A DNA stretch of 64,000 nucleotides from an uncultured Candidatus Saccharibacteria bacterium (GTDB taxonomy: Bacteria > Patescibacteriota > Minisyncoccia > Ryanbacterales > HO2-45-13). Under the pieces are notes generated by a model, which worked only from the letters and a program-made list of their open reading frames with translations, was not told the origin of the DNA and did no database searches. This document shows, piece after piece, positions 51,245-63,895 of the stretch (within the stretch, counting starts at the first letter, position 1; each line of letters opens with the position of its first letter). Position numbers and translations under genes: made by a program. The stretch is taken from contig CAYHBS010000001.1 in NCBI GenBank assembly GCA_964354975.1, positions 56,282-120,281 on the forward strand, in the 5' to 3' direction.

Positions 51245-51410
51245 AAAAACAATAATTTTTTCATTTCACAATATTTTTTTGCACACTAAATTGCAAAAAG
51301 TTGCAAAAAAATAGGGCTGATAAACCTTGATAAATATTTTGGCATTCTTGTTCATAACTTGTGCATATCTATCAAGGTGTAGTAATGCGTTATTGTTTGT
51401 TCACAAATAT

Positions 51411-51432
51411 AAAACCGCCTTGAGGCGGTTTT
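51411..51432. terminator. Bidirectional terminator hairpin aaaaccgcc ttga ggcggtttt downstream of gap
   Basis: seen in sequence. Confidence 0.65.
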
Positions 51433-51570
51433 ATATTTGTAATTATTCACAGGTTTCTTCCACATCACTTTCTTCTATGAGAAAGTGATGTGGAATTTAT
51501 CCTTCAATTTGCATTATATACAGAAACTTTTCATGAATATTTTATCAGGAAACCTAAAATTGGTGCGAGA

Positions 51571-52572
51571 CTATTTCAAAAACTGTGCGAGCGATTCTAC
51601 GTGCTTAATGAGCATCGCGCAGTATCCCCATTCATTGTCGTACCACGCGCATACTTTGACCATATTTCCATCTACCACGCGCGTAAGCGATAGATCAACA
51701 ATTGAACCAAAGGGAGATCCAATAATATCAGATGACACCAGTGGTTGTTCTGCAACGGTGAGAATACCACTCCACTCACGCGACGCTGCGGCCTTGGACA
51801 GAATTGCATTCACCTCCGCTACGGTCGTTGTGCGGCGAGAAAGAAATGTAAAGTCGATAATAGAACCCGTGGCCACTGGCACTCGCATTGCAATGCCGTC
51901 AAACTTTCCTTTTACTTCCGGCAACACATGCTCTACCGCCTCTGCGGCTCCAGTGGACGTTGGGATAATATTCATAGCCCCTGCGCGTCCTCTCGCAAAA
52001 TCTTTTGCGTCGGGACCATCGACGATTTTTTGTGTAGCGGTATATCCATGCACCGTAGTGAGCATCCCCTTCTCAATACCAAGTTCCTTCATCAGTACCG
52101 CAACGATCGGATTTGTGGCGTTTGTAGTGCAGGACGCATTTGAAGAAATATTACTGCGCGAGAGTGCCTGAAAATTTAAATTCGGAGTTGCGGTCGGTGT
52201 GTCGTCACGCGCGGGAGCCGAAATAACAACTCGTTTCGCTCCTGCGCGAGTATGGGCAGACGCCTCATCTTGCGTCATGAATACGCCGGTGGACTCAATC
52301 ACCACGTCCACACCAAGTTGTTTCCAGGGAAGTTTTTCCGGTTCCTTTTCGTGAAGCACCGCGATCTTTTGCTTCCCTACCACAAGCATGTCTCCCTTCA
52401 CGCTCACCGATTGTTCATACGTTCGGTATACCGAATCATACTTTAGCAAGTACGCGAGGTTATAAATTTCCCCAAGATCATTAATTCCCACTATAGTGAT
52501 CCCCTTCTTCCCGTACGCCTGACGGAAAAATGTGCGCCCAATACGTCCAAAACCATTGATCGCTATATTCAT
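51571..52572 (-). CDS. gap: Glyceraldehyde-3-phosphate dehydrogenase
   Basis: 333 aa; NGFGRIGR Rossmann motif, active site SNASCTTN, WYDNEWGY. Confidence 0.93.
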   Translation of the reverse strand: MNIAINGFGRIGRTFFRQAYGKKGITIVGINDLGEIYNLAYLLKYDSVYRTYEQSVSVKGDMLVVGKQKIAVLHEKEPEKLPWKQLGVDVVIESTGVFMTQDEASAHTRAGAKRVVISAPARDDTPTATPNLNFQALSRSNISSNASCTTNATNPIVAVLMKELGIEKGMLTTVHGYTATQKIVDGPDAKDFARGRAGAMNIIPTSTGAAEAVEHVLPEVKGKFDGIAMRVPVATGSIIDFTFLSRRTTTVAEVNAILSKAAASREWSGILTVAEQPLVSSDIIGSPFGSIVDLSLTRVVDGNMVKVCAWYDNEWGYCAMLIKHVESLAQFLK

Positions 52573-52576
52573 ATGA

Positions 52577-53536
52577 TTAGTGCTGCTCTTTAGGCGCTGC
52601 TGCGGGACTTACTTTTTCTATCGAAAGCAAATAATTGTACGCCGAAAGCGCAGCTTTTACGGCGTCCCCACATGAAATGTTATTTTGTTTGTACAATTCG
52701 TCCGTCACGTCCCCCGCCGAAAAGACTCCCAGGCAACTCGTTGCGGCAGTACGATGATCAATGATTATTTCACCATGTGGATTAATATCCACGAGTCCTT
52801 TCGCGATTTCTGAATTTGGAATAGATCCGATTTCAACAAATACTCCTTGTACGGCTAGTGATTTTTCTTTATTGGTACGCGTATCGGTGTATATAAGCGC
52901 GCTCACCATTTTTTCACCCTCAATACGCGCGGTCTTGGCATTCGTGATAATTGATACTTTCTTGTCTCCCTTTAATTTTTCAAGCGTGATCGGATCTCCC
53001 TTTGGAGCGTCACCATATTCAATAATGCTGATAGTTTTTGCAAATGGGATCAGGTCCACGGCGGCTTCGAGTCCCGCGTTTCCCCCTCCCACCACCGCAA
53101 CGTCCATCCCGGAAAATATCGGAGCGTCGCAGGTGGAACAGTACGCTACACCCGTGCCTTCAAATTTATCCTCTCCCGGCACATTCAGCTTTCTCCGGCG
53201 CGCGCCTGAAGCAATAATAACCGAGCGCGCTTTGTAGGTTTTCCCCTTGTCTGTTTCCACAAGAAAATCGCCGTTTCCTTTTTCAATTTTAATCACCCGT
53301 TCGGGCATACGAATTTCAAGATTTGGTTGCGCGCGCATGTGCGCCTCTAGCGCCTTCGCGAGGTCATAGCCAGATATTGACGGGGTTCCTATCCAGTTTT
53401 GTACATCTGCGCTTACGATGGACTGCCCACCGATACTTTCGGTAATCACCACCGCTTTCATTTGTTTGCGAGCAACATATACGCCAGCCGCTGCAGCCGC
53501 GGGTCCGCCGCCAATCACAATAACGTCATATTCCAT
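52577..53536 (-). CDS. trxB: Thioredoxin-disulfide reductase
   Basis: 319 aa; FAD motif VIVIGGGPAAAAAG, redox-active CSTCD, NADPH motif VVGGGNAGLEAA. Confidence 0.88.
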   Translation of the reverse strand: MEYDVIVIGGGPAAAAAGVYVARKQMKAVVITESIGGQSIVSADVQNWIGTPSISGYDLAKALEAHMRAQPNLEIRMPERVIKIEKGNGDFLVETDKGKTYKARSVIIASGARRRKLNVPGEDKFEGTGVAYCSTCDAPIFSGMDVAVVGGGNAGLEAAVDLIPFAKTISIIEYGDAPKGDPITLEKLKGDKKVSIITNAKTARIEGEKMVSALIYTDTRTNKEKSLAVQGVFVEIGSIPNSEIAKGLVDINPHGEIIIDHRTAATSCLGVFSAGDVTDELYKQNNISCGDAVKAALSAYNYLLSIEKVSPAAAPKEQH

Positions 53537-53580: not shown

Positions 53581-56500
53581 TCACCGAGGTGTATATAATT
53601 TATCGGGTCGGATCGCAAATTCGATATCAATGGTATTTTGTTTGCTACAACCCACATAATCGGCACCGCACGCTCCGTCCCATCCGACGAGCTTGACACC
53701 GTAGCGACCGGGAAGTACCGAAGCGTCCAAAATAGTAATCGTCACGGTATCATTTAAATCAGTATCGAAAATTAGACCTTCGGTGGATCCGCTTGAGAAC
53801 CGTGCTTCATATTCGGAAGATTGCAACGTTGAAAATTCAGCGTCCGAGCACGTCACTTCATCATCAACGCACTTCACGTACACGCTATCTACCTTTAGCT
53901 TGATGTCCCCCGTAAACCCTCCGAGACGAGTCGCGGTTACTTCAATCGTATTTGTTTTCCAGTTACCAGTACCCGACTCATCCACCGGCTTTACTACCGC
54001 AAATGTAGTTTCGTTTGATGTGACTTCAAGCTCGAACGCGGGACCAACTTTGCGAAGTAGCACACACATTCCCCAGAAGGTATTTTCAAATGCGTTATAT
54101 TCATTGTTGTCAGTGACGGATGAGCATCCTGGATCATTACTACTTCCTTCTCCATAGTCTTTATAGGTGTCCACGTCATTGTCGACGCCGTCGTTGCAGG
54201 CATAAGCCGCTGGTGGTGCTCCTGGCTTATTGCCTGGATCTGTACCGTCAGTAGGAAATACATCTCCACTTTGGTCGAGTTCCGAAAATAATTTATGTGA
54301 AAACCTCGCGCTCACCGCATCTACCGGCAAGAAGAAGTTCGTGTTGACGCGATCGGTGGTAATAATATTATTTGGCACGTAGTCCGGAATATCAGTGGTA
54401 GGAGACGAGCCTCCGATGCGATTCCCCTGTGGAGTCGCTTCAAATGAAAACCCGGGTGTGGTGGATGCGGCGTTATACAGCTCGATATACGCCGATTCAT
54501 CTTTCTGGTACCACCCCTCGCCGCTACCACCATGGGCGTCATATATTTGCAGCCAGATGTCGTAATATCCGGAAGGAACGGGTGTGGGAAATGTGGCGGC
54601 GGTTGTTGTCGCCTCAAGAATTATTGCCCCACCATGCCGCGAGTTTAGACGCCGATCGGAATCCGCTTTCCTAACCCCATTTGTACTACTATCGGTCTCA
54701 CCTGTTGCGAGGAGAAAATCAAGTACGTACTCTCCATTCTCGGGATCGTCTTTCCAGTCACACGCTATTTCAAATGTGACGAGGGATGCACATCCGTCTT
54801 CTGCCCCAGTCACTTGATACTGGAGCGTACTATACGTCGCGCCTGAAAAACTAATCCATCCGAGAATGTCGCCTCCCCATGCCCAGCCACTGTAATTACA
54901 ATCGCTAATCGTGACGCCGTACTGAATAGACTCATTTGCCTGCTTGCTCAAACTAATCCAGCCGTCCCATCCTCCCGGATGATCTGCAGCAGTTGCGCAC
55001 GTACCGGGAATTTCGTTTGAAGCGGTCGCGGTACCAAGACATGCACGCGCCCAGCCCGTCACCTTCCCTGTTGAGGTTGCGACCCTTGCCTCACACAGTC
55101 CCGCCGGACATTGCCCGAGTTGACTCTTATTAAACGAGATCCAGCCAATGTTTTCATTCCATGCATATCCCGAAATGAGCCCCGTGGGATCTACATTGAG
55201 TCCATAATCATTTGAGGGATTCGGGTCTGCAAAACTAATCCACCCCACCGTTTCGCTCCATGCCCATCCCGTAATTTCACGCAGCGCACTATCCTCACTG
55301 CGATCGGAAAGTGATACACATCCTGTGTCCGATCCAAAATCAGTTTGCCCGTCTCCATCATTGTCTATTTTATCCTCGCACTGTACGGCCACACGTGAGC
55401 ATGTTTCGCAGGTATACCCGTCAGTTCCGCGATAAGAAATACCGGGATATTCTGCAGGAGGTGATCCGGGAGCCGGGTCCCAATCCACTTCCCAGAACCA
55501 CGCACCTTTCCCGTACTGTCCCGTATTGCTGTTGTCGGCGTATATAGGATCACTATTTAGCGCGGTACCAATGACATTCTTGGGTACACCAAGAAAGTGC
55601 TCATGGTTATCTCCTGGTCCCGTGCATCCCATATCTGCAGAATAATCAATGATGCCATCACCATCATTATCAATATTGTCTTCACATGCGTCGAGCCCTG
55701 CTACTGTGTTCACCTCCGTTGTATCCGCGGCAGAACTACATCCCGTGTCGGAAGAAAAATCAATCGCGCTGTCCCCATCATTATCTATGCCATCATTGCA
55801 ACCATTTGGCACACTTCCATTGTGATAACACACTCCTTTTCCTGTGCCGGGATGAATAAAGCATCCTCTCTTATACACCGTAGTACTGTTTGAGATAGGA
55901 TCATCAGGATCGGACATAATTCTACTCCCCGCCGTGTGCGTGGTGGAAACACGGTTGAGTTCGCTATCATCATCTGCATACGCGCATCCCGGATCATATC
56001 TGTCTTTATATCCGTCCCCATCATTGTCCACCGTATCGTTACACGCGGCAGAAGCGTCTGGATTACTTTCCACGTCACTTTCATCGTTGTCGCTCGTTGA
56101 ACTACATCCAACGTCATTGAGGTCAATATAAGTGTCTGTATCATTATCTTGCCCGTCATTGCACTGCGCAGGAAGAATGAGATTTCCGTCCGCTGCCCAT
56201 CCATCGGTGCCAGAATCAAAATTTACTCTCCAGTACCACGCACCTCCTTCGTAGCTTGGCGCACCTATAAATCCATAAGTTGGTGTGGACAGGGTAACCG
56301 CTCCCCCCGCATTTAGCACTTGAGACCCGCTCGGCGTCATACCACTCGTGGGTGAAAGCGCCCCTGCCGAAATAGGGTACACACTTGCGCTCGCCACGCC
56401 CACGACTATTCGCTGCCCATTTGAAAATGTAGTTGGCGGTATCTCATCCGACTCGTTATTGTCGGATGATCCTCCACACCCCGGATCTGCAGCGTCTATG

Positions 56501-58551
56501 TAACCATCAGTGTCGTCGTCCCCGCTATTTGCACATTGCGCTGGAGCCGCTCCTGATGGCGGCACTGCAACTGCAATATGTACGGTACGATTATACGTTC
56601 CGAGGTGGTTCCAGTGCATGCTGGTATTCCCGATGCTGCCTGCTGCTTTAGTGCTCACACCAAATTGTAAATAGTATGTTCCACCGTTTGTTGTTCGATG
56701 TATTTCAGTTTGCGAGGGATCTGCGGTCGCTACATTGGTAATTTGCCCCGTCATAAACGCATCAACGACTAAACTGTTTGCAGTACTCACACTCACGGTC
56801 ACATCTTTGATTTCACAGGCAGTCGGCCAACAGGGTGTGCCTTCATCTGACGCACTTGGAGCATCGGCTGCTCCCGAAAGTAACACCGCAGAAGCCGACT
56901 TTCCAGGCACTGACCCATTCCAAGTAATCACCACATTGCTGGTTCCCGCGGGTGGATCAGTCACATACCACGTGGACACACAACTATTCCAGCCGGATTG
57001 TTTTGTTGTTGTGGCAACCGCCCGTTGTGGAGTGCTTGCCCCATATGTCACTGAATTGACCGCACACCCCACTGCGTTATTTCTTTCGGCATACGTAGAA
57101 ATAATAAGCAGTTGATCGACGGAAGCACTCGGTACGGTGAATGGGAACGTGGCGGAGCTTGAAGTAGTAGCGGTAAATGTATTTGCCGTACCATACGGAT
57201 TGTCGTAGCGGTAATCGGAGGAGACAACGGAGGGGGGAGATGAGGGTGGCGCATTATATTCATCAGTGTCGGTGGAAGAAGTACAGCCCGGGTCACCTCC
57301 AGAAAAATCAATGAAACCATCGGCTGGGCTATCGTCCTCTTGTCCGTTGTTACATTCGACGGCAGCCGATAGGTTCGCCGCATTCACCCATCCATCAGTG
57401 CCTGCATCAAAATTCACTCTCCAATACCATACTCCTCCGCCATAACTTGGGGCACCGGTAAATCCATACGTTGGTGTAGCAACATTGATTACTCCTTTTG
57501 CATCTTGGGACTGCGTGCCACTCGATGTCATATTGCTTGTCGGAGCAAGTGCCCCCGCAGCAATTGGGTAGAGATTCGTGCTAGCCACTCCCACAACTAT
57601 GCGCTGTCCATTTGTAAACGTTGTGGGTGGTGTATGTGATTCGTCGTTGTCGGATGACGCTCCGCACCCCGGATCTGCGGCATCAATAAGAGAGTCTCCA
57701 TCATCATCTCCGCCATTTTCACACGCAAATGCCGGAGGCACCACAACTGCAACGTGCGCGGTACGGTTGTAGGTATAATTCAGCGGATCATCACTCCAAC
57801 TCATGGTGATGTTCCCGGGAATAGTGCTGACTTCCGTGCTCACGCCAAACCGCAATGTACTATTGGTACCAAGATTTGTTTGATTATGAATTGGGGTCTG
57901 ATTCGCCCCCACCTCGGGTGTGGTATTGAGTATTCCTGTCACAAATGAACCGAGCACTAAACTGTTTGCCGTACTCACGCTCACGGTCACGTCCTTGATT
58001 TCACAGCCGCTCGGCCAACAGGGGGTGCCCTCATCTGACGCACTTGGAGCATCGGCTGCCCCAGAGAGAAGCACTGCGGATGCCGCACTTCCCAATATTC
58101 CGCTCGTCGTCCATGTAATAACCACATCATATGTTCCTGCGGCAGGAAAAGAGGCGCCGTCGAGATACCGTGTATCAACACACGTATTTAATGATGATGT
58201 GTTTTTCGTTGTCGTCGCGACGGCTGCGAATAGTGGCGTGCCGTTATATGTAATGCTCTGCACGGTACACCCCTCAACATTAATGCGCCTACCATATGCA
58301 GAGACAAGGAGGAGTTGGTCTGCAACTGGGCCTGTGACTGTGACTGGGAATGTTGCTGATGTAGTCGTTGTTGCACTAAACGTATTTGCCGTACCGTAGG
58401 GATTGTCGTAACGGTAGTCGGAGGAGACAACGGAGGGGGGAGGGACGGCTTGCGCAGATGTCGATGGACTGTCGAATATCAATACTGCTCCTGCGATGAG
58501 CATGAGCAGTATGAGCGAAGCGGCGTAGTGATGCTTCTGAATTTTTGGCAT
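53581..58551 (-). CDS. Giant secreted surface protein (1656 aa): two tandem ~430-aa N-terminal modules, multiple Cys-bracketed Asp-rich repeats, and a four-unit GWISF repeat domain shared with 59459-62779
   Basis: Signal peptide. Duplicated VPPPSVVSSDYRYDNPYGTANTF...CENGGDDDGDSLIDAADPGCG modules. CNDGxDNDxD repeats. ITGWAWSETVGWISF / ISGYAWNENIGWISF / GGWDGWISL / YSGWAWGGDILGWISF repeats. Confidence 0.8.
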   Translation of the reverse strand: MPKIQKHHYAASLILLMLIAGAVLIFDSPSTSAQAVPPPSVVSSDYRYDNPYGTANTFSATTTTSATFPVTVTGPVADQLLLVSAYGRRINVEGCTVQSITYNGTPLFAAVATTTKNTSSLNTCVDTRYLDGASFPAAGTYDVVITWTTSGILGSAASAVLLSGAADAPSASDEGTPCWPSGCEIKDVTVSVSTANSLVLGSFVTGILNTTPEVGANQTPIHNQTNLGTNSTLRFGVSTEVSTIPGNITMSWSDDPLNYTYNRTAHVAVVVPPAFACENGGDDDGDSLIDAADPGCGASSDNDESHTPPTTFTNGQRIVVGVASTNLYPIAAGALAPTSNMTSSGTQSQDAKGVINVATPTYGFTGAPSYGGGVWYWRVNFDAGTDGWVNAANLSAAVECNNGQEDDSPADGFIDFSGGDPGCTSSTDTDEYNAPPSSPPSVVSSDYRYDNPYGTANTFTATTSSSATFPFTVPSASVDQLLIISTYAERNNAVGCAVNSVTYGASTPQRAVATTTKQSGWNSCVSTWYVTDPPAGTSNVVITWNGSVPGKSASAVLLSGAADAPSASDEGTPCWPTACEIKDVTVSVSTANSLVVDAFMTGQITNVATADPSQTEIHRTTNGGTYYLQFGVSTKAAGSIGNTSMHWNHLGTYNRTVHIAVAVPPSGAAPAQCANSGDDDTDGYIDAADPGCGGSSDNNESDEIPPTTFSNGQRIVVGVASASVYPISAGALSPTSGMTPSGSQVLNAGGAVTLSTPTYGFIGAPSYEGGAWYWRVNFDSGTDGWAADGNLILPAQCNDGQDNDTDTYIDLNDVGCSSTSDNDESDVESNPDASAACNDTVDNDGDGYKDRYDPGCAYADDDSELNRVSTTHTAGSRIMSDPDDPISNSTTVYKRGCFIHPGTGKGVCYHNGSVPNGCNDGIDNDGDSAIDFSSDTGCSSAADTTEVNTVAGLDACEDNIDNDGDGIIDYSADMGCTGPGDNHEHFLGVPKNVIGTALNSDPIYADNSNTGQYGKGAWFWEVDWDPAPGSPPAEYPGISYRGTDGYTCETCSRVAVQCEDKIDNDGDGQTDFGSDTGCVSLSDRSEDSALREITGWAWSETVGWISFADPNPSNDYGLNVDPTGLISGYAWNENIGWISFNKSQLGQCPAGLCEARVATSTGKVTGWARACLGTATASNEIPGTCATAADHPGGWDGWISLSKQANESIQYGVTISDCNYSGWAWGGDILGWISFSGATYSTLQYQVTGAEDGCASLVTFEIACDWKDDPENGEYVLDFLLATGETDSSTNGVRKADSDRRLNSRHGGAIILEATTTAATFPTPVPSGYYDIWLQIYDAHGGSGEGWYQKDESAYIELYNAASTTPGFSFEATPQGNRIGGSSPTTDIPDYVPNNIITTDRVNTNFFLPVDAVSARFSHKLFSELDQSGDVFPTDGTDPGNKPGAPPAAYACNDGVDNDVDTYKDYGEGSSNDPGCSSVTDNNEYNAFENTFWGMCVLLRKVGPAFELEVTSNETTFAVVKPVDESGTGNWKTNTIEVTATRLGGFTGDIKLKVDSVYVKCVDDEVTCSDAEFSTLQSSEYEARFSSGSTEGLIFDTDLNDTVTITILDASVLPGRYGVKLVGWDGACGADYVGCSKQNTIDIEFAIRPDKLYTPR

Positions 58552-58575
58552 TAGCGAGTGCTTATAATGGTGTTG

Positions 58576-59088
58576 TTATAAACTTTGCAACTCTCTCCAA
58601 TCGGCTGCGTTATTACACCCCGCAGAAAGTTCGCATAGATTGAATTTGTTCGAGGTAGTGTTAAAAAGAATAGTTCCTTGCACAGCAGAAATCGCATCTC
58701 GCTGGTACTCCTCCATTTTTGGCACAATTACACCCCCCTTAGCATTAGTTGTGATTGACAGCGCGCCATTACTTTCATCTATGTATACATCGGGTGTAGC
58801 CGCACCATTGTAGAATCCTATAGATCCTTCGACGGTCAAATCTCCAAACACATCAAGACAGAGACCTCCAAAGCCAGCGCATAGCCCAAGAGGCCCATTT
58901 TTCGACTGCAACACCGGACCCGTATTCAGTGGAGCATATATTTTTACAGTATTGTCATATCCAGGCGGCTCATCGTCCGGATAGATGAATGCCGACACTG
59001 AAAAAGCTGCGGCCACCACTGCACCGCAAACAAGTGCGACCGTAATATAAAATAATTCTCGTGTAGGTTTCATATAATTACAAACCAA
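58576..59088 (-). CDS. Secreted/membrane-anchored hypothetical protein (170 aa)
   Basis: N-terminal hydrophobic anchor; overlaps the upstream gene by 11 nt (operon member). Confidence 0.55.
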   Translation of the reverse strand: MVCNYMKPTRELFYITVALVCGAVVAAAFSVSAFIYPDDEPPGYDNTVKIYAPLNTGPVLQSKNGPLGLCAGFGGLCLDVFGDLTVEGSIGFYNGAATPDVYIDESNGALSITTNAKGGVIVPKMEEYQRDAISAVQGTILFNTTSNKFNLCELSAGCNNAADWRELQSL

Positions 59089-59455
59089 ATCTTTTTAACT
59101 GCTCCTGTTCTCTCTGAAAAGTGTCTTCTGTTGGTAGCTCGTAACTTTCATTTTCAAATCGTTTTTTTTGGTCAATTAATCGTTGCTCTGCTTCTTCTTG
59201 TGGCAACATGTACGACCCTTCACGCAACCGCTGTTCCTGCTCAAGTCTTGCTTTCAAAAGCTCCTCACGGCTTGGCTCTGCATCACGAGTTACTACATAA
59301 AACATACCAATCACGAGGGCGATGAGTGCAACAAGTGCAATTGCCGTGACCACCGCGCCCTCACGCGTGAGCACATATGCTTTGATTTTTTGAAGAACTT
59401 CGTATCTTCGCTCGGCACTATGCCATTTCGGAAGTTGCGGGGTGTCCATATACAC
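59078..59455 (-). CDS. Single-pass membrane protein with charged coiled-coil tail, hypothetical (125 aa)
   Basis: TM AVVTAIALVALIALVIGMFYVV then E/R/Q-rich segment; 3 nt downstream of the 1106-aa gene. Confidence 0.55.
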   Translation of the reverse strand: MYMDTPQLPKWHSAERRYEVLQKIKAYVLTREGAVVTAIALVALIALVIGMFYVVTRDAEPSREELLKARLEQEQRLREGSYMLPQEEAEQRLIDQKKRFENESYELPTEDTFQREQEQLKRFGL

Positions 59456-59458
59456 CTG

Positions 59459-62400
59459 TTACTGTTCCCCGAGACTTTCACGTTCGTCTATGAGATAGGC
59501 AGGAATTAAGAGTATTTTATCTGCACAGGATCCTACAGTATCTTCAGCGCGAAGGCGCATAGTGAATTCACCAACTGGTTGGGTGCGAGAGTTGTCCAAC
59601 GTGAGGGTTATACGGAATGATCCGGAGCCAAGTGGAGTTGTTGTCTGATTTGCAATACGCATTGGTGCAGTATCTGACCCAATGATCACATCAGTGTCGA
59701 AGGAGAGATTGAGATTATTTGGATCAAATCCATTGAGACTAAGCACCACGTCTACCGAAAACGTATTTTGTGAATTGTTATCTTGCAAAATGAATGCCGC
59801 GGTCGGAGTTGTTCCTCCGACGAAGTTGAAGTTGTCAAAACATTGAACGGTATTGAGCGTAAGTGTATGTGTGTCACTTGTTTCTTCGCTGCCCGCCGTA
59901 CAGTTGATGGTATAGGTGACACTTGGTCCAGAAGAAGGTGCGGTGACACCAATGGTGTCATTCCCTGGTACGTTTGGATCGAATGTTTGATTCACTCCAC
60001 CTCCGGTGAGCGTACAACTTGCTCCCGTTGTGGGGCCATCGTAATTCACATCGAGATCAAAATCCTCACCCTGATCAACACTTCCAGGTCCATCAAGGTC
60101 TACGTCCGTGTAGACATCAACGTCAATCGTGTCCGAAACGGATGCGCCGCCGGATGCGCTCGTACAGGTAATAGTGTAGGTGCGATCCACGGTAATGGCC
60201 GAGAAGGAGTGTGTCCGCACTGTATTTTTGCTCCATGTACTACCAGAGCTTGAATCGAGCACACACGTTGCGGTGATGTCTGTTGTTCCCGTTGTTACGT
60301 TTCGCACGGTCCAGCGAAGGTCTGCTCCGGTTCCAACAATAATGCGTACGGGTCCATCAGTATATATACCACTCGATCTCGGTCTTCCCTGTAATGAAAC
60401 GCTAATCGGATCTGGCGGAGTTGCACTAATGTTCACTACAAATTTATCTATGGCGGGATTCCCGCTTATAAGCGTATTTGCATTGTCACACGTCAGAGTG
60501 AAGGTGGTGTCTGTGGTGAGTGCACCGGTGACGTATGTTCCACTATTTCCCGGAGTGCCAAAATCGACTCCGTCCGATGAGAGTTGGCAGGACTCGGCAT
60601 CAACAGACCCCCATGTAAGATCCACCGTGCTACCAGATGGAACCGTAATTGGACCATTAACATAATTGTATGCGGTTGGAGGGTCAGTTGGCTTGGGGGT
60701 CTTCCTTCCGTCGAGCATTGCAAGCGGACCATTGACATCAACCGTAATCGTGAAGTTCCCGCATTTATGTGTATTCGTCGAAGCTATGCCGGCAGCAGAG
60801 TTACCAATTGACCTCACACACACTTGGCCAGTATATGTGCCATCAGGAACGATCGCACCAACCGTGAGATCAAGAGGTCTAGTGCAGCGAAGTGGGTTGC
60901 CTGATGGAAGACAGCTGACAGTAGAATCATAATCAGCATTAATGCCCGCGGAAGCGATTGGGCTCGTTGGAAATGTCACACTTACCATGCGTACCCGCTC
61001 CACCGCCGAAAGTGGAGAAAGCCATGTGATGACAACGTTAGATCTCACTGAAGTGCCCCCATATGACGTGACTGTTGCAGGAGTCGAAGGAACTACGGTG
61101 AAATTGACACCCGGAGCAGGAGGATTATCAATGGTGAGTATAAACGTATCATTTGCCGTTCTCCCCCCAGCTGCCTGGGTGTTGACGCGAAGCGTGTGCG
61201 TACCCACCGGAGCGGCAGACGTGATAGTGAGCACGCGAGCGATCTGACAAGTCGGAGATGGTCGACACAGCTGTCCGATCAATGCCGAAGCGGAAATACT
61301 TGAAGGTAGTGATGTGTTGTCTGCAAAAGTAACACTCGTGATACGCACGTCTTCGCTTGTGCCGGCGGTTCGAGTGATGAGAATCGGAATATTTTGAGTT
61401 ATAGAACCAGATGAAGGGCGAGTTACGGTGGTTTCCGCATTTGGCGCATCAACTGTGTAATTAAATGTGCTGCAGAAATTCACGCAGAGTTGAACGGTAG
61501 TATTGCGTATTGTTGACCCATTCACACCACGTACATTTACCGTGTATGGTCCGTCGGGCATACCTGATGGCACCGTGACATTCATTCGCAAGACGCACGA
61601 GCCCGTGCTTGGAATACAGGAGGTGGAGGGTGAAAATGCCGTGGTAATTGTGCTGACTGTCGCGCCCGATGAATTCGTTACTGTTGCTGAAAGATTCACA
61701 CTCGCCGCAGTACCTGCGGTGCGTGTGACAGTGATATCAGAATACTTGGTGGCGGGCGCAGTATATGGTATCGATATTGGATTTCGAGAGAGCGAGAAAT
61801 CAAATGTTGGCGCATCTTGCACCGTAAGCGTAGTAGTATCTGATTTCAGAATTCCTGTTGCGCTACGCGTGTTGGTCGTGAGCGTATACGTTCCTGCAGT
61901 CGCGCCCGATTCGATATCGATTAACCCGGTTGTAACGCATGGCGTACCAGAAATTGGCGTACATGAAGCGCCTGCCCATGATGGGTTTATTGCTGATGAA
62001 GCGGGAGAAACTGTGATGCTTGTGATAGTGACTACTTCATTTGTACTGCCCGAAGTCTTGGTGATGGTGACGGGAAGTGGTTCCGTAATGGATCCTGAAG
62101 CCGCCTTCACCACCGTAATCGCCGTTGGGGCAGCAATCGAATAGTTATATGGCGCAACACATGCGTCCCCGGTTCCGACTATTCCATAAGGGGATCCATT
62201 GGTTGCCGAATCCATAAAATTAATCCAGCCGAAGTCATCACTCCACGCGTACCCAGACCACTGACACGCGGACACGGAGACACCATATACAGCACCAGTG
62301 GTCGCAGTCCCACGAAGGCGCACCCATCCTCCATTTGGCAGTTCACTACCTAAGATGAAACGGGCCCATCCGGTAACTTGACCGGTAGATTTGTTTAACG

Positions 62401-62779
62401 CTGCCTGACAATTTGGTGCCGTCGGGCAAGTCGATGTATCAATAGAATTAAACGAAAGCCAGCCAATATTGTCCGTTTTTGTTATTGAATTTGTGGCCAT
62501 CCATGGAGATAACATCGCTCCTGCATTCGTATCTTCCGGGTTTGCCCATGCATACCCACTGATAACTCCCGTAGACGATACTTTCACTCCATAACCAGCG
62601 CCGCCCGTTGGTGGATCGGTATCATTAAAACTGATCCATCCGATAGTCTCTGACCAGGCAAAACCGGACAGATTATCAGTGGTTGCTGCAGAAGCCGGCT
62701 GAAACGCAAACATCGCAAGCGCAGCGAGCGCAAGCGTCCCGATGAAGAACCATTTATACTGTTTAACGGCAAGTATCAC
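59459..62779 (-). CDS. Large secreted surface protein (1106 aa): N-terminal GWISF four-repeat domain followed by a long Thr/Ser-rich array of Ig-like domains
   Basis: Signal peptide. LSGFAWSETIGWISF, ISGYAWANPED...NIGWLSF, GWVRLRG, WSGYAWSDDFGWINF repeats match the domain in the 1656-aa protein. Confidence 0.8.
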   Translation of the reverse strand: MILAVKQYKWFFIGTLALAALAMFAFQPASAATTDNLSGFAWSETIGWISFNDTDPPTGGAGYGVKVSSTGVISGYAWANPEDTNAGAMLSPWMATNSITKTDNIGWLSFNSIDTSTCPTAPNCQAALNKSTGQVTGWARFILGSELPNGGWVRLRGTATTGAVYGVSVSACQWSGYAWSDDFGWINFMDSATNGSPYGIVGTGDACVAPYNYSIAAPTAITVVKAASGSITEPLPVTITKTSGSTNEVVTITSITVSPASSAINPSWAGASCTPISGTPCVTTGLIDIESGATAGTYTLTTNTRSATGILKSDTTTLTVQDAPTFDFSLSRNPISIPYTAPATKYSDITVTRTAGTAASVNLSATVTNSSGATVSTITTAFSPSTSCIPSTGSCVLRMNVTVPSGMPDGPYTVNVRGVNGSTIRNTTVQLCVNFCSTFNYTVDAPNAETTVTRPSSGSITQNIPILITRTAGTSEDVRITSVTFADNTSLPSSISASALIGQLCRPSPTCQIARVLTITSAAPVGTHTLRVNTQAAGGRTANDTFILTIDNPPAPGVNFTVVPSTPATVTSYGGTSVRSNVVITWLSPLSAVERVRMVSVTFPTSPIASAGINADYDSTVSCLPSGNPLRCTRPLDLTVGAIVPDGTYTGQVCVRSIGNSAAGIASTNTHKCGNFTITVDVNGPLAMLDGRKTPKPTDPPTAYNYVNGPITVPSGSTVDLTWGSVDAESCQLSSDGVDFGTPGNSGTYVTGALTTDTTFTLTCDNANTLISGNPAIDKFVVNISATPPDPISVSLQGRPRSSGIYTDGPVRIIVGTGADLRWTVRNVTTGTTDITATCVLDSSSGSTWSKNTVRTHSFSAITVDRTYTITCTSASGGASVSDTIDVDVYTDVDLDGPGSVDQGEDFDLDVNYDGPTTGASCTLTGGGVNQTFDPNVPGNDTIGVTAPSSGPSVTYTINCTAGSEETSDTHTLTLNTVQCFDNFNFVGGTTPTAAFILQDNNSQNTFSVDVVLSLNGFDPNNLNLSFDTDVIIGSDTAPMRIANQTTTPLGSGSFRITLTLDNSRTQPVGEFTMRLRAEDTVGSCADKILLIPAYLIDERESLGEQ

Positions 62780-62799
62780 AAATATATGCGATTAGCCGA

Positions 62800-63627
62800 T
62801 TAGAGTGCCGACCACTTAGGCGCTCCTCCTACATTCTTACAAATATACGCAGTATCGTTCGACCCACCCACGAGAATAATTTTACCTCGCCATTGATTAC
62901 TGCAATTGCTCCCCGCCGCAGCACCGACTGCAAAGTCATTAATTTGCTGAGCGTCTGCTGTAGTGACTACTCCATCTCCATCAACATCAGCGCGGCGATA
63001 TTCGGACATACCAACTCCAACAGTTCCAGCTGCGATTTGTAGCGCACGCTGGCTGTCCAGTACAGTAATGGTTTTATCATTATTAACGTCTCCAACCATT
63101 CCAATAGCAAGCTCTGATCCGTAGACAAGCTGCTCTGCTTTCTCTTTTGGCTGACCAACGGCTCGCTGCATAATAATGAGCGCATCGGCAATATTTACTA
63201 CTCCATTACCATCAACGTCGTGAGCCGCATATTCAGCCTTAGAGACAAAATTATATTGGTTATCGAGATAACGAACGACACGTAGCGCATCTGTCGCGGT
63301 AGTTTTATCTGCTCCTTCAGTATAAATTGATCCGTCGATGTAAATTGATCCGTTAATATCAACCTGTGCTCGCAATACGTCCGTTCCGGTGTTAAATCCA
63401 GCCTTCCCCGCTGCTACGACAAACGAATTTTGATTTATCGTGGCTGTTCCTCCAACAATAAGACCTCCGGCCTTCATCTGCGCTATGTTGCTTTTATTAA
63501 TCGGCGCCTCTGGATTACATCCTGGAGGTGCACAGGCGGGCGGGGCCGCAAGCATTTCAGAAACTCCTGTAACAAACAACACCCCGAGCACAATGACCGC
63601 AATCTGTTTTATGAACGTAGACTTCAT
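62800..63627 (-). CDS. Secreted protein with three dockerin-like Ca-binding repeats (275 aa)
   Basis: Signal peptide; HDVDGNGVVNIADALIIMQRAVG, GDVNNDKTITVLDSQRALQIAAG, ADVDGDGVVTTADAQQINDFAVG fit the dockerin DxDxDGxVNxxDxxxxxR pattern. Confidence 0.7.
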   Translation of the reverse strand: MKSTFIKQIAVIVLGVLFVTGVSEMLAAPPACAPPGCNPEAPINKSNIAQMKAGGLIVGGTATINQNSFVVAAGKAGFNTGTDVLRAQVDINGSIYIDGSIYTEGADKTTATDALRVVRYLDNQYNFVSKAEYAAHDVDGNGVVNIADALIIMQRAVGQPKEKAEQLVYGSELAIGMVGDVNNDKTITVLDSQRALQIAAGTVGVGMSEYRRADVDGDGVVTTADAQQINDFAVGAAAGSNCSNQWRGKIILVGGSNDTAYICKNVGGAPKWSAL

Positions 63628-63649
63628 ATCTTTATATTAAATAATTAAA

Positions 63650-63895
63650 TTATTCACCGCTCTCTTCAGCAGGAGCAGTGTTCATTGAAAGTAATAATTC
63701 GTAATAATCGCCCAACGTATCCGAGGATTCCGTATTCATAGAAGCAAGTAACTCGTCATATTCCCCCTTTTCAGAAAGCTTGCCTCCTACTGAACGACCA
63801 TCTTGAGTGAGCCACCCGACCATACCCCACACCATTACCAAAAATATCACAATCATGCCCAAAAATTGCTTGGTCGTGAGCTTCTGGTTTTGCAT
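63650..63895 (-). CDS. Small membrane protein with acidic C-terminal tail (81 aa), first gene of the surface-protein operon
   Basis: TM GMIVIFLVMVWGMVGWL; 22 nt upstream of the dockerin-repeat gene. Confidence 0.5.
   Translation of the reverse strand: MQNQKLTTKQFLGMIVIFLVMVWGMVGWLTQDGRSVGGKLSEKGEYDELLASMNTESSDTLGDYYELLLSMNTAPAEESGE

What the first reader, a model, noticed from the sequence alone, without database searches (positions are those of the whole stretch)
53581..63895. Six-gene minus-strand operon of cell-surface proteins sharing a novel four-unit GWISF repeat domain
From 63895 down to 53581 the genes are nearly contiguous, with gaps of 22, 20, 3, -11 and 24 nt. They encode a small TM protein with acidic tail, a secreted triple-dockerin-repeat protein, a 1106-aa protein, a TM coiled-coil protein, a 170-aa anchored protein and a 1656-aa protein. 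The two large proteins share a ~190-aa domain built of four repeats of the form G(W/Y)AWSExIGWISF: LSGFAWSETIGWISF / ISGYAWA...NIGWLSF / GWVRLRG / WSGYAWSDDFGWINF, versus ITGWAWSETVGWISF / ISGYAWNENIGWISF / GWDGWISL / YSGWAWGGDILGWISF. This is reminiscent in style of choline/cell-wall-binding repeats, but I do not recognise it as a described family. The 1656-aa protein also has two tandem ~430-aa N-terminal modules and the same Cys-bracketed Asp-rich repeats as the giant lyase. Co-expression of dockerin-repeat, anchoring and giant adhesin-like proteins suggests a dedicated surface assembly, for example for host attachment or cell-wall tethering of large enzymes. This may represent an undescribed system.
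Basis: partly seen in the sequence, partly recalled or inferred. Interest (0 to 1): 0.7.

Follow-up and report, generated by a model that had tools for sequence, protein, structure and literature searches.

The report
Duplicated three-gene surface module, new Trp-barrel
The six genes are two tandem copies of a three-gene cell-surface cassette that recurs across Patescibacteria (ultra-small, probably host-attached bacteria); it is built around an uncatalogued tryptophan-rich barrel-like domain, and its function is still only inferred.

Summary
Six minus-strand ORFs have the stated gaps. The 1106-aa and 1656-aa proteins share a four-hairpin "GWISF" domain (37% identity, E 2e-30).

The main new result is a conserved partnership, and it does not involve the dockerin:
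- In 82 loci from other species, the GWISF gene sits next to genes for secreted proteins with a conserved N-terminus, AW-T-x-P-T-x-x-PP-x-G-N-V-x-AP-[IL]-N-V-G-x-x-x-Q-x-K-x-G-x-L ("PPGGN"). Their density near the GWISF gene is more than 100 times that in the outer flanks.
- A small single-pass membrane protein with short tail repeats is often adjacent too.
- The window's 275-aa and 170-aa proteins are PPGGN members. The 81-aa protein fits the small-protein class; the 125-aa protein fits only by architecture.

The cluster is therefore 2 x [small membrane protein, PPGGN protein, GWISF protein]. My best mechanistic guess is that the barrel is a docking or anchoring module holding variable surface proteins on the cell. 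That step is inferred. A single operon is unproven.

The parts
63650..63895 (-). Module 1, small bitopic membrane protein (81 aa). N-terminal TM segment, acidic tail with two repeats, YDELLASMNT and YYELLLSMNT (nt 63674-63763).
   Evidence: ORF. Ortholog in L070 at E 2e-36. It fits the class of small TM proteins with tail repeats found next to GWISF modules, with a 7/8 internal repeat.
62800..63627 (-). Module 1, PPGGN-family secreted protein (275 aa). Signal peptide or anchor, then the conserved N-terminal motif AAPPACAPPGCNPEAPINKSNIAQMKAGGLI (nt 63457-63549). Three dockerin/EF-hand-type loops follow (nt 62923-63330), then a small C-terminal beta unit.
   Evidence: PPGGN N-terminus HMM E 9e-13. 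Member of the family found in 57 of 82 loci. Dockerin_1 at 50.8 bits. The AF2 monomer model is poor, with the motif unstructured.
59459..62779 (-). Module 1, GWISF protein (1106 aa). Signal peptide, then the GWISF barrel at residues 36-216 (nt 62132-62674) with a ~25-residue insertion in hairpin 2. Then four ~115-aa Ig-like modules (residues 213-663, nt 60791-62143), three ~70-aa 'LxWxxxxAxxC...TFTLTC' Ig-like modules (residues 700-960, nt 59900-60682) and a C-terminal region.
   Evidence: Ortholog in L070.
59078..59455 (-). Module 2, small bitopic membrane protein (125 aa). TM segment followed by a highly charged tail. Assigned by position and architecture only; it lacks the LxxLTAP-type motif.
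   Evidence: No homologue was detected in the 82 loci.
58576..59088 (-). Module 2, small PPGGN-family protein (170 aa; probable start at the ATG at 59073). Motif PDDEPPGYDNTVKIYAPLNTGPVLQSKNGPLGL (nt 58873-58980). C-terminal 'G-x-I-x-F-N...C...W-x-x-L' element shared with other small family members.
   Evidence: PPGGN HMM E 8e-5, one of only two hits in the 64-kb window. It aligns in A2 and A4 with the invariant P, Q and K columns.
53581..58551 (-). Module 2, GWISF protein (1656 aa). Signal peptide, then duplicated ~385-aa modules (nt 57259-58419 and 56080-57216). Acidic double-disulfide repeats: the regex maps eight (nt 57649-57723, 56461-56535, 56089-56163, 55969-56043, 55723-55800, 55609-55686, 55303-55380, 54109-54198), and by eye a further copy lies near residues 400-431. 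GWISF barrel at residues 1088-1262 (nt 54766-55290). Orphan C-terminal ~390 aa.
   Evidence: 88%-identical ortholog in L004.
51406..51495 (-). Context only. First terminator-like structures downstream on this strand: a 17-bp palindrome (51458-51495) and AAAACCGCC-TCAA-GGCGGTTTT followed by a T-rich tail (51406-51433). They lie after trxB (52577-53536) and gap (51571-52572).
   Evidence: No comparable hairpin lies between the six genes and trxB/gap.

Best explanation
The region holds two tandem copies of a three-gene envelope cassette that is widespread in Patescibacteria. Each copy encodes three proteins:
1. A small single-pass membrane protein with an extracellular charged tail, often made of repeats.
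2. A secreted 'PPGGN' protein. Its mature N-terminus (about 30 residues) is conserved, and its distal part is variable and often fibre-like. Here the distal part carries dockerin-type calcium loops.
3. A secreted protein carrying the GWISF domain. Four Trp-rich beta-hairpin units are predicted to close into a small barrel-like fold. In most relatives the domain sits directly after the signal peptide and is followed by variable Ig-like or other modules.

Proposed mechanism (inferred):
- The GWISF barrel is the conserved docking or retention module of the cassette, not the business end.
- It holds large variable proteins at the cell surface through non-covalent binding to a co-encoded partner. 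That partner would be the conserved PPGGN N-terminal segment, the repeat tail of the small membrane protein, or both.
- The small membrane protein is the only component predicted to stay in the membrane.
- The variable distal domains would contact the environment or a host cell.

In this genome the cassette has been duplicated and its GWISF proteins greatly enlarged (1106 and 1656 aa, against a typical 300-450 aa).
For: SHOWN
- Domain homology between the two large proteins.
- Family size of 6285 cluster representatives, and at least 577 hits in species-representative genomes, nearly all Patescibacteria.
- The domain starts at ORF residue 27-93 in 72 of 85 relatives.
- A PPGGN-family ORF lies within 5 kb in 57 of 82 loci. 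81 of 83 such ORFs are on the same strand, and 23 lie within 41 nt.
- Motif-HMM hit density is 6.7 per 10 kb within 500 nt of the GWISF gene, against 0.04 per 10 kb at 5-7.5 kb.
- 29 of 39 loci with full flanks have a PPGGN gene within 2 kb.
- The only two PPGGN hits in the 64-kb window are the genes immediately upstream of the two GWISF genes.
- Small bitopic proteins make up 24% of genes directly adjacent to the module, against 3-6% farther away. Their tails are enriched in an LxxL(T/S)AP-like motif (26 occurrences against 1.0 +/- 1.0 in shuffles) and in internal repeats.
- The cassette occupies the same chromosomal slot in L015, between a DUF4015-like gene and trxB, as a single copy. L038 also has two copies.

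INFERRED
- Both secreted classes have A-x-A-type signal peptides and no TM, lipobox or sortase signal (read from sequences), so they would need non-covalent retention.
- In both classes the N-terminal part is conserved and the distal part is variable.
- Copy number looks low (one or two GWISF genes per locus), which fits a dedicated complex better than a general wall anchor.
Against: - No direct evidence of any protein-protein contact. Co-folding could not be run.
- No GWISF-PPGGN fusion protein was found.
- About a quarter of complete loci lack a nearby PPGGN gene. One GWISF gene sits alone inside a ribosomal-protein operon.
- The small membrane protein was detected in only 39 of 81 loci, by crude criteria, and it is not a demonstrable homologous family. 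The window's 125-aa protein lacks the motif.
- The number of tail repeats does not track the number of partner genes (inspection).
- Regular-repeat relatives in Planctomycetota and one other large genome occur without PPGGN partners, so the barrel can work without them.
- Trp-rich repeats are also typical of carbohydrate or cell-wall binding.
- Only secondary structure and pLDDT of the barrel model were visible, so no ligand site could be examined.
Confidence: 0.4

Rival explanations
1. The GWISF barrel is a cell-wall-polymer binding module, binding peptidoglycan or a secondary wall polysaccharide. It would be functionally analogous to ChW, choline-binding, GW or SLH modules and would tether large secreted proteins to the Patescibacteria wall. 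The neighbouring genes would share a location but not bind the barrel.
For: - Trp/Gly-rich hairpin repeats with conserved acidic residues at the hairpin turns.
- Position directly after the signal peptide, with many different passenger domains attached.
- Regular-repeat relatives just reach the Pfam ChW threshold (24.4 bits, cut-off 22).
- ChW is regarded as a surface-anchoring repeat with an unknown ligand (PMC5817068).
- The barrel occurs without PPGGN partners in other phyla.
Against: - The window domains and all 67 Patescibacteria-type relatives give no ChW, CW_binding or GW hit, even at E <= 1.
- General wall anchors are usually scattered on many paralogues. This domain is low-copy in the loci examined and tightly linked to two other gene classes.
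- The predicted fold is a closed barrel, not an open solenoid.
Confidence: 0.3
2. The GWISF barrel is itself the adhesin or lectin that recognises a host-cell surface glycan, and the cassette is a host-attachment organelle whose specificity lies in the barrel.
For: - Cultivated Patescibacteria are episymbionts and their host-recognition factors are largely unknown (abstracts listed).
- An aromatic-rich beta fold is compatible with sugar binding.
- Weak CBM_6 similarity, E 0.029, below threshold.
Against: - The barrel is the most conserved part across very different lineages and habitats, whereas host-recognition parts usually vary most. The distal domains are the variable ones.
- The conserved columns are mostly the structural G/W/A motif residues.
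Confidence: 0.12
3. In this lineage the 275-aa dockerin-type protein docks onto cohesin-like ~115-aa modules of the adjacent 1106-aa protein, as a mini-cellulosome-style pair.
For: - Dockerin_1 hit on the 275-aa protein.
- A profile of the ~115-aa modules finds, as its top two PDB sequences, Ruminococcus flavefaciens cohesins (5m2o_A, 5aoz_A).
- The dockerin is kept in the L070 ortholog.
Against: - Those PDB hits are not significant (E 0.16-0.2), and the two chains are near-identical over the aligned stretch.
- There is no Pfam Cohesin hit.
- The aligned stretch is a generic beta-sandwich strand motif.
- Dockerins are rare among PPGGN and GWISF relatives, so this cannot explain the conserved cassette.
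Confidence: 0.12
4. The adjacency has no functional meaning. These would be unrelated secreted-protein genes, or a phage-derived tail-fibre island, that merely lie side by side in a compact, strand-biased genome.
For: - Almost all genes in the window are on the minus strand with short gaps.
- PPGGN proteins give weak PHROG tail-fibre hits on their GNVGIGT segments.
Against: - PPGGN genes are more than 100-fold enriched next to GWISF genes in 82 different species.
- The cassette keeps a conserved chromosomal slot among housekeeping genes.
- The GWISF domain was not found in 2.9 million IMG/VR viral contigs, and there is no viral fold match.
Confidence: 0.04

Closest known systems
ChW repeat (Clostridial hydrophobic W, Pfam PF07538)
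   Same: - Extracellular repeat with a conserved G-W dipeptide inside a hairpin-like stretch (YrAHVQNIGW in ChW, as recalled from memory, against YAWSENIGW here).
- Thought to mediate surface anchoring or protein-protein contact, with an unknown ligand (PMC5817068).
- Regular-repeat relatives of GWISF in Planctomycetota reach 24 bits against a cut-off of 22.
   Different: - The window domains and 67 of 67 Patescibacteria-type relatives do not match the ChW model.
- The units are ~35-45 aa, come in a fixed set of four with a degenerate third unit, and are predicted to close into one barrel.
- The taxonomic range (Patescibacteria) and the gene partners differ. ChW occurs mostly in Firmicutes and Actinobacteria endolysins.
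Choline-binding / cell-wall-binding repeats (CW_binding_1, PF01473) and Listeria GW modules
   Same: Aromatic-rich short repeats used to hold secreted proteins non-covalently on a monoderm surface.
   Different: - No HMM match.
- Those repeats form open superhelical solenoids or SH3-like modules (established knowledge). The GWISF model is a compact barrel-like unit.
Soluble eight-stranded up-and-down beta-barrels of surface proteins (hemophilin, HpuA, TbpB and fHbp C-terminal barrels; avidins)
   Different: - No lipobox.
- Those proteins belong to diderm surface-lipoprotein systems.
- The similarity is topological and does not show homology.
N-terminal attachment motifs of fibre proteins (Bacillus BclA N-terminal domain on the exosporium basal layer; adenovirus fibre tail on the penton base; phage tail-fibre N-termini)
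   Same: A functional analogy only, from my own knowledge: a conserved short N-terminal segment, a variable and often collagen-like or fibrous shaft and head, and attachment to a conserved base protein. Some PPGGN proteins carry collagen repeats (Pfam Collagen 2.6e-9) or tail-fibre-like GNVGIGT segments.
   Different: No sequence relationship was detected, and attachment has not been shown here.
Cohesin-dockerin assemblies
   Same: The 275-aa protein carries dockerin-type loops. The general logic of modular non-covalent surface assembly is similar.
   Different: - No cohesin was detected (E 0.16).
- The dockerin is a lineage-specific passenger and is not part of the conserved cassette.

Membership tests
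ChW (PF07538) | Match to the Pfam ChW HMM above the gathering score (22 bits) | tested here: not met
   No hit for either window domain at E <= 10. 0 of 67 Patescibacteria-type relatives match at E <= 1. Only Planctomycetota-type relatives reach 23.5-24.4 bits.
ChW (PF07538) | About 50-aa repeat with a conserved GW dipeptide, 1-12 copies, in cell-surface proteins or endolysins of Firmicutes and Actinobacteria (PMC5817068) | tested here: inconclusive
   The GW dipeptide and an extracellular location are present. The unit length, the fixed four-unit architecture, the taxa and the partner domains differ.
Choline-binding repeat CW_binding_1 (PF01473) / Listeria GW domain | HMM match | tested here: not met
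   No Pfam hit.
Choline-binding repeat CW_binding_1 (PF01473) / Listeria GW domain | Open solenoid or SH3-like fold | tested here: not met
   [not shown]
Dockerin type I (PF00404), for the 275-aa protein | HMM match above the gathering score | tested here: met
   50.8 bits against a cut-off of 22.9, E 2e-13.
Dockerin type I (PF00404), for the 275-aa protein | Duplicated Ca-binding loop plus helix | tested here: met
   Three D-x-D/N-x-D/N loop-helix units at residues 137-154, 180-197 and 214-231.
Cohesin (PF00963), as a partner in the 1106-aa or 1656-aa protein | HMM or significant sequence/profile match to cohesins | tested here: not met
   No Pfam hit. The PDB profile search finds two cohesins at the top, but at E 0.16-0.2.
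Acidic double-disulfide repeat (NCBIfam NF033662), in the 1656-aa protein | HMM match above the cut-off | tested here: met
   107.3 bits against a cut-off of 41, 8 stretches. Eight copies mapped by regex, with a further one seen by eye near residues 400-431. Shared with the 2844-aa ORF.
Slam-type surface lipoprotein barrels (hemophilin, TbpB, HpuA, fHbp) | Homology, N-terminal lipobox, diderm host with a Slam translocon | tested here: not met
   [not shown]
Type IV pilin / pseudopilin, for the 170-aa and 275-aa proteins | Class III signal peptide (G/A | F/M-T-L-I/L-E) with a retained hydrophobic helix | tested here: not met
   The N-termini are Sec-type n-h-c signals ending ...A | W/F-T-E/G-P (alignment A2). 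Genuine pilins with KGFTLIELLVV occur as separate genes in some loci.
Proposed Patescibacteria three-gene cassette (defined here) | GWISF protein directly adjacent to a protein with the PPGGN N-terminus | tested here: met
   In the window, 275 aa precedes 1106 aa and 170 aa precedes 1656 aa. HMM E-values are 9e-13 and 8e-5, and these are the only hits in 64 kb.
Proposed Patescibacteria three-gene cassette (defined here) | Adjacent small bitopic protein with tail repeats | tested here: inconclusive
   The 81-aa protein fits (LLASMNTE motif, 7/8 internal repeat). The 125-aa protein fits only by architecture. This class is not a demonstrable homologous family.

The most novel reading that the evidence does not exclude
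A previously undescribed three-component surface-assembly system that is widespread in Patescibacteria. A new four-hairpin Trp-barrel domain would act as a socket for the conserved N-terminal docking peptide of interchangeable fibre or adhesin proteins. The complex would be tied to the membrane by a small repeat-tailed protein. Besides type IV pili, it would be a main apparatus by which these ultra-small, probably episymbiotic cells display variable binding proteins.
Probability: 0.3. Interest if true: 0.8.

Novelty: new variant of a known kind. Interest (0 to 1): 0.62.

Why it matters
- Patescibacteria make up a large share of bacterial diversity, and all cultivated members live attached to other microbes. 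Apart from type IV pili, their surface machinery is almost unknown (abstracts listed).
- A domain family with thousands of members and no entry in Pfam or NCBIfam, locked into a conserved gene cassette with two other uncatalogued protein classes, is a concrete and testable candidate for how these cells mount variable proteins on their surface.
- The barrel and the ~30-residue PPGGN peptide are small enough for direct binding and structural tests.
- If they do pair, they would also be a new orthogonal docking pair for protein display.
- If the barrel instead binds a wall polymer, it would define a new wall-anchoring module for a phylum whose envelope chemistry is poorly known.

Tried and rejected
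1. Known-family assignment of the GWISF domain. Pfam, NCBIfam, PHROGs, and PDB sequence and profile searches all gave nothing.
3. Dockerin as the conserved partner: rejected. Among the ORFs near GWISF genes only the L070 ortholog matches the dockerin region. 1 of the 120 listed homologues carries PF00404.
4. Phage origin: rejected. No relative in IMG/VR, and the flanks are housekeeping genes.
5. Rosetta-stone fusion of GWISF with PPGGN: none found.
6. Matching the number of tail repeats in the small protein to the number of partner genes: no consistent relation (inspection).
7. Exact-sequence look-up of the window's 1656-aa protein in public assemblies: not on record.
8. Promoter and terminator scans inside the cluster: no more sites than in shuffled sequence. 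No Shine-Dalgarno-like sequences.
9. Homologues of the 1656-aa N-terminal module: none found. PDB search with both full-length giants: nothing significant.
10. AF2 of the 275-aa protein: too poor to use (pLDDT 57.9).
11. Literature search for the motifs and for a described Patescibacteria surface cassette: nothing found.
12. A word-index homologue search with the PPGGN alignment returned only short 'hypothetical' proteins. The tool seems to favour hits of similar length to the query.
Full report
**1. The observation**

The six minus-strand ORFs exist exactly as described: 63895-63650 (81 aa), 63627-62800 (275 aa), 62779-59459 (1106 aa), 59455-59078 (125 aa), 59088-58576 (170 aa) and 58551-53581 (1656 aa). 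The gaps are 22, 20, 3, -11 and 24 nt.

BLASTP aligns residues 36-216 of the 1106-aa protein with residues 1092-1263 of the 1656-aa protein at 37% identity, E 2e-30. A regex finds the four quoted units in both proteins. The third unit is degenerate (GWAR...GGWxGWxxL), and the 1106-aa copy has a ~25-residue insertion in hairpin 2.

The side claims also hold:
- The 275-aa protein matches Dockerin_1 (50.8 bits against 22.9) and has three Ca-loop/helix units.
- The 1656-aa protein has a tandem duplication, residues 45-431 against 446-824, 59.6% identity.
- It carries the NCBIfam NF033662 acidic double-disulfide repeat (107 bits, 8 stretches). These repeats are shared with the 2844-aa ORF at 42710-51244.

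The rest of the window is ordinary housekeeping genes (rpoA, alaS, mnmA, clpB, htrA, transketolase, fba, gap, trxB). The closest public relative is a Patescibacteria MAG with 88% identity over the domain.

**2. What the GWISF domain is**

It matches nothing in the catalogues searched:
- Pfam-A, even at E <= 10.
- NCBIfam and PHROGs.
- PDB sequences, by single sequence or by profile.

It is nevertheless a large family:
- phmmer against 1.84 billion cluster representatives finds 6285 proteins at E <= 1e-3 and 2998 at E <= 1e-10.
- A pattern scan of one genome per species returned at least 577 confirmed sites. Nearly all are Patescibacteria (Paceibacteria/Parcubacteria-type MAGs).

The typical member is 300-450 aa, and the domain starts 27-93 residues into the ORF in 72 of 85 cases, directly behind a signal peptide. 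PKD or other Ig-like modules follow in some members.

The conserved columns are almost all the G/W/A motif residues of the four hairpins.

AlphaFold2 with a 67-sequence alignment gives a confident all-beta model (pLDDT 83.5, pTM 0.81). Fold comparisons gave the following:
- Foldseek finds nothing at E <= 0.001 in the PDB or among viral models.

I read this as four hairpins closing into a small barrel-like fold with no close solved relative. Only the secondary structure and confidence of the model were visible to me, so surface or ligand-site analysis was not possible.

A second subfamily has four regular ~40-aa units (YGVxxDxxGxLSGYAWSENIGWISFSCxNTxSCG). It occurs in Planctomycetota and one other large genome. 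It just reaches the Pfam ChW threshold (24.4 bits against 22). None of the 67 Patescibacteria-type proteins, nor the window domains, match ChW even at E <= 1. ChW is therefore the nearest named repeat in style and possibly a very distant relative, but membership is not met.

**3. The surroundings: a conserved three-gene cassette**

I took the 80 best genomic loci (each from a different species) plus two loci fetched by exact protein look-up, translated every ORF, and clustered everything within 5 kb of the GWISF gene.

*PPGGN partner.* One family stands out. It is present in 57 of 82 loci (84 ORFs). 81 of 83 are on the same strand as the GWISF gene, 23 lie within 41 nt and half within 500 nt, and they fall upstream and downstream about equally.
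- Its members share a Sec-type signal peptide followed by a conserved mature N-terminus: AW(T/S)(E/G)P(T/S)xxPPxGNVxAP(I/L)NVGxxxQxKxGxL. P, Q and K columns are invariant.
- After that they diverge into GNVGIGT-type fibre-like segments (weak PHROG tail-fibre hits), collagen repeats or small Cys-rich heads.
- The family has no Pfam or NCBIfam model, and its members are annotated 'hypothetical'.
- An HMM of the N-terminal motif gives 6.7 hits per 10 kb within 500 nt of the GWISF gene, against 0.04 per 10 kb at 5-7.5 kb. That is more than 100-fold enrichment.
- Among loci with at least 2.5 kb on both sides, 29 of 39 have such a gene within 2 kb.
- In the whole 64-kb window the HMM hits exactly two ORFs: the 275-aa protein (E 9e-13) and the 170-aa protein (E 8e-5). 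Each lies immediately upstream of a GWISF gene.

*Small membrane protein.* A third, looser component is a 60-150-aa single-pass membrane protein.
- It makes up 24% of the genes directly adjacent to the module, against 3-6% farther away, and was detected in 39 of 81 loci.
- The tails of these proteins are enriched in an (I/L)LxxL(T/S)AP-like motif (26 occurrences against 1.0 +/- 1.0 in shuffles). 16 of 42 have a >=6/8 internal 8-mer repeat, against 2 of 42 in shuffles.
- The window's 81-aa protein fits (YDELLASMNT and YYELLLSMNT). The 125-aa protein fits only by architecture.

*Reading of the window.* The window is therefore 2 x [small membrane protein, PPGGN protein, GWISF protein].
- In L015 a single cassette (85, 179 and 576 aa) sits in the same slot, between a DUF4015-like gene and trxB. 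The close relative (L070 and L004) keeps the window's order, and L038 also has two tandem cassettes.
- The window's peculiarity is the duplication and the very large GWISF proteins.
- The dockerin is a lineage-specific passenger. Among ORFs near GWISF genes, only the L070 ortholog matches that part of the 275-aa protein.

**4. How it most likely works**

Shown:
- The three gene classes are linked far beyond chance across many species.
- In both secreted classes the N-terminal part is conserved and the distal part is variable.
- All parts carry export signals and extracellular-type modules.

Inferred from reading the sequences:
- GWISF and PPGGN proteins have A-x-A-type cleavage sites and no TM anchor, lipobox or sortase signal, so after export they need non-covalent retention.
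- The small bitopic protein is the only predicted membrane-embedded part.

My preferred model (confidence about 0.4) is that the barrel is a docking or retention module. It would bind the PPGGN N-terminal segment, the repeat tail of the small membrane protein, or both. The resulting surface complex would have variable distal domains (Ig-like arrays, acidic disulfide repeats, dockerin loops, collagen or fibre heads) that do the outward-facing work. The logic resembles fibre proteins that attach by a conserved N-terminal tail (BclA, adenovirus fibre, phage tail fibres). That comparison is from my own knowledge and is an analogy only.

The main rival (about 0.3) is a ChW-like wall-polymer anchor.
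- For it: Trp-rich repeats suit carbohydrate binding, and barrel relatives in other phyla work without PPGGN partners.
- Against it: the lack of any ChW, CW_binding or GW match, and the tight, apparently low-copy linkage to two other gene classes.

Lesser rivals:
- The barrel is itself a host lectin (about 0.12). It is the most conserved part, which argues against this.
- A lineage-specific cohesin-dockerin pairing between the 275-aa and 1106-aa proteins (about 0.12; top PDB profile hits are cohesins, but at E 0.16-0.2).
- Meaningless adjacency or a phage island (about 0.04; no IMG/VR relative).

**5. Operon status**

Consensus scans found no more promoter-like or terminator-like sites than in shuffled sequence, and no Shine-Dalgarno-like sequences. 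On this strand the first convincing terminator-like hairpin (AAAACCGCC-TCAA-GGCGGTTTT followed by a T-rich tail, 51406-51433) lies after trxB and gap. The transcription unit may therefore extend beyond the six genes, or there may be internal promoters. Conserved gene order supports functional linkage of the cassette. It does not prove a single transcript.

**6. Comparison with the known, and novelty**

By the tests run here, the domain is not a member of ChW, the choline-binding repeats, GW modules, cohesins or the Slam-type lipoprotein barrels. The dockerin and the acidic disulfide repeats are ordinary members of known families.

No paper in the searchable library mentions the motifs, and I found none describing such a Patescibacteria surface cassette.

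I rate it as a new variant of a known kind. Modular, non-covalent surface display is known. The barrel domain, the PPGGN N-terminal module and their conserved cassette are not catalogued.

The most novel reading still open is a dedicated socket-and-peptide surface-assembly system found widely in the phylum. I give that a probability of about 0.3.

**7. Limits**

- The function is inferred from anatomy and gene neighbourhood only.
- The 82 loci are the best-scoring ones, not a balanced sample.
- Gene calls in the loci are my own stop-to-stop ORFs.
- The small membrane protein class rests on architecture and motif enrichment, not on demonstrable homology.
- The model's coordinates could not be inspected, co-folding could not be run, and the AFDB fold libraries were unavailable.

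Noticed in passing
L001:10001-10843 (JGI Ga0103682_10000040): A 280-aa GWISF protein (P0010) is encoded between rplB and rpsS, inside the ribosomal-protein operon of a Patescibacteria contig. No PPGGN gene lies nearby, which is an unusual place for a secreted protein gene.
   Followed up: partly
window 51406-51495: Downstream of gap on the minus strand there is a perfect 17-bp palindrome (51458-51495), then a classic terminator-like hairpin AAAACCGCC-TCAA-GGCGGTTTT with a T-rich tail (51406-51433). The consensus scan missed the second one. It is the first such structure after the six-gene cluster, trxB and gap.
   Followed up: partly
window 42710-51244 (-): A giant 2844-aa ORF carries nine acidic double-disulfide repeats like those in the 1656-aa protein, plus a C-terminal PG_binding_1 match (27 bits).
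   Followed up: partly
L069:12091-15132, L008:7311-9083, L072:9357-11102 and others: PilB-like ATPase genes (10 loci) and type IV pilin genes (9 loci) lie within 5 kb of the GWISF cassette in other Patescibacteria. No such genes are in this window. This could be shared synteny or a functional link.
   Followed up: no
window 60791-62143 (1106-aa residues 213-663): Four ~115-aa Cys-pair beta modules give, as their best PDB profile hits, two Ruminococcus flavefaciens cohesins. The hits are not significant (E 0.16-0.2). The adjacent gene encodes dockerin-type loops.
   Followed up: partly
window 58576-59088 and 62800-63627; P0283, P0275: Small PPGGN proteins share a second element at the C-terminus, roughly C...G-x-(I/L)-x-(F/Y)-N...(Y/L)-C...W-x-x-L. 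In the AF2 model of the 275-aa protein this part is the only well-predicted beta unit (residues 250-274, pLDDT about 80).
   Followed up: no
L015:3332-10603; L070:6148-8630; L002:4122-6281: The cassette often lies between a FAD-oxidoreductase gene plus a DUF4015-like gene on one side and trxB on the other. Thiol-disulfide genes (a DsbA-like ORF in L015, VKOR in L002) are nearby, which fits the many extracellular Cys pairs in the cassette proteins.
   Followed up: no
L085:4394-8170 (4.1-Mb contig ERZ25072999 ctg322019): A regular-repeat GWISF relative with a dockerin-like tail (P0113) sits in an array of alternating small PEP-CTERM-type and Lcl_C-domain secreted proteins. This is a different context from the Patescibacteria cassette.
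   Followed up: no
window 53581-58551, residues 35-270 and 446-660: The duplicated ~230-aa N-terminal module of the 1656-aa protein has no detectable homologue in the word-indexed protein search, and no Pfam or PDB match. It appears to be an orphan domain.
   Followed up: partly
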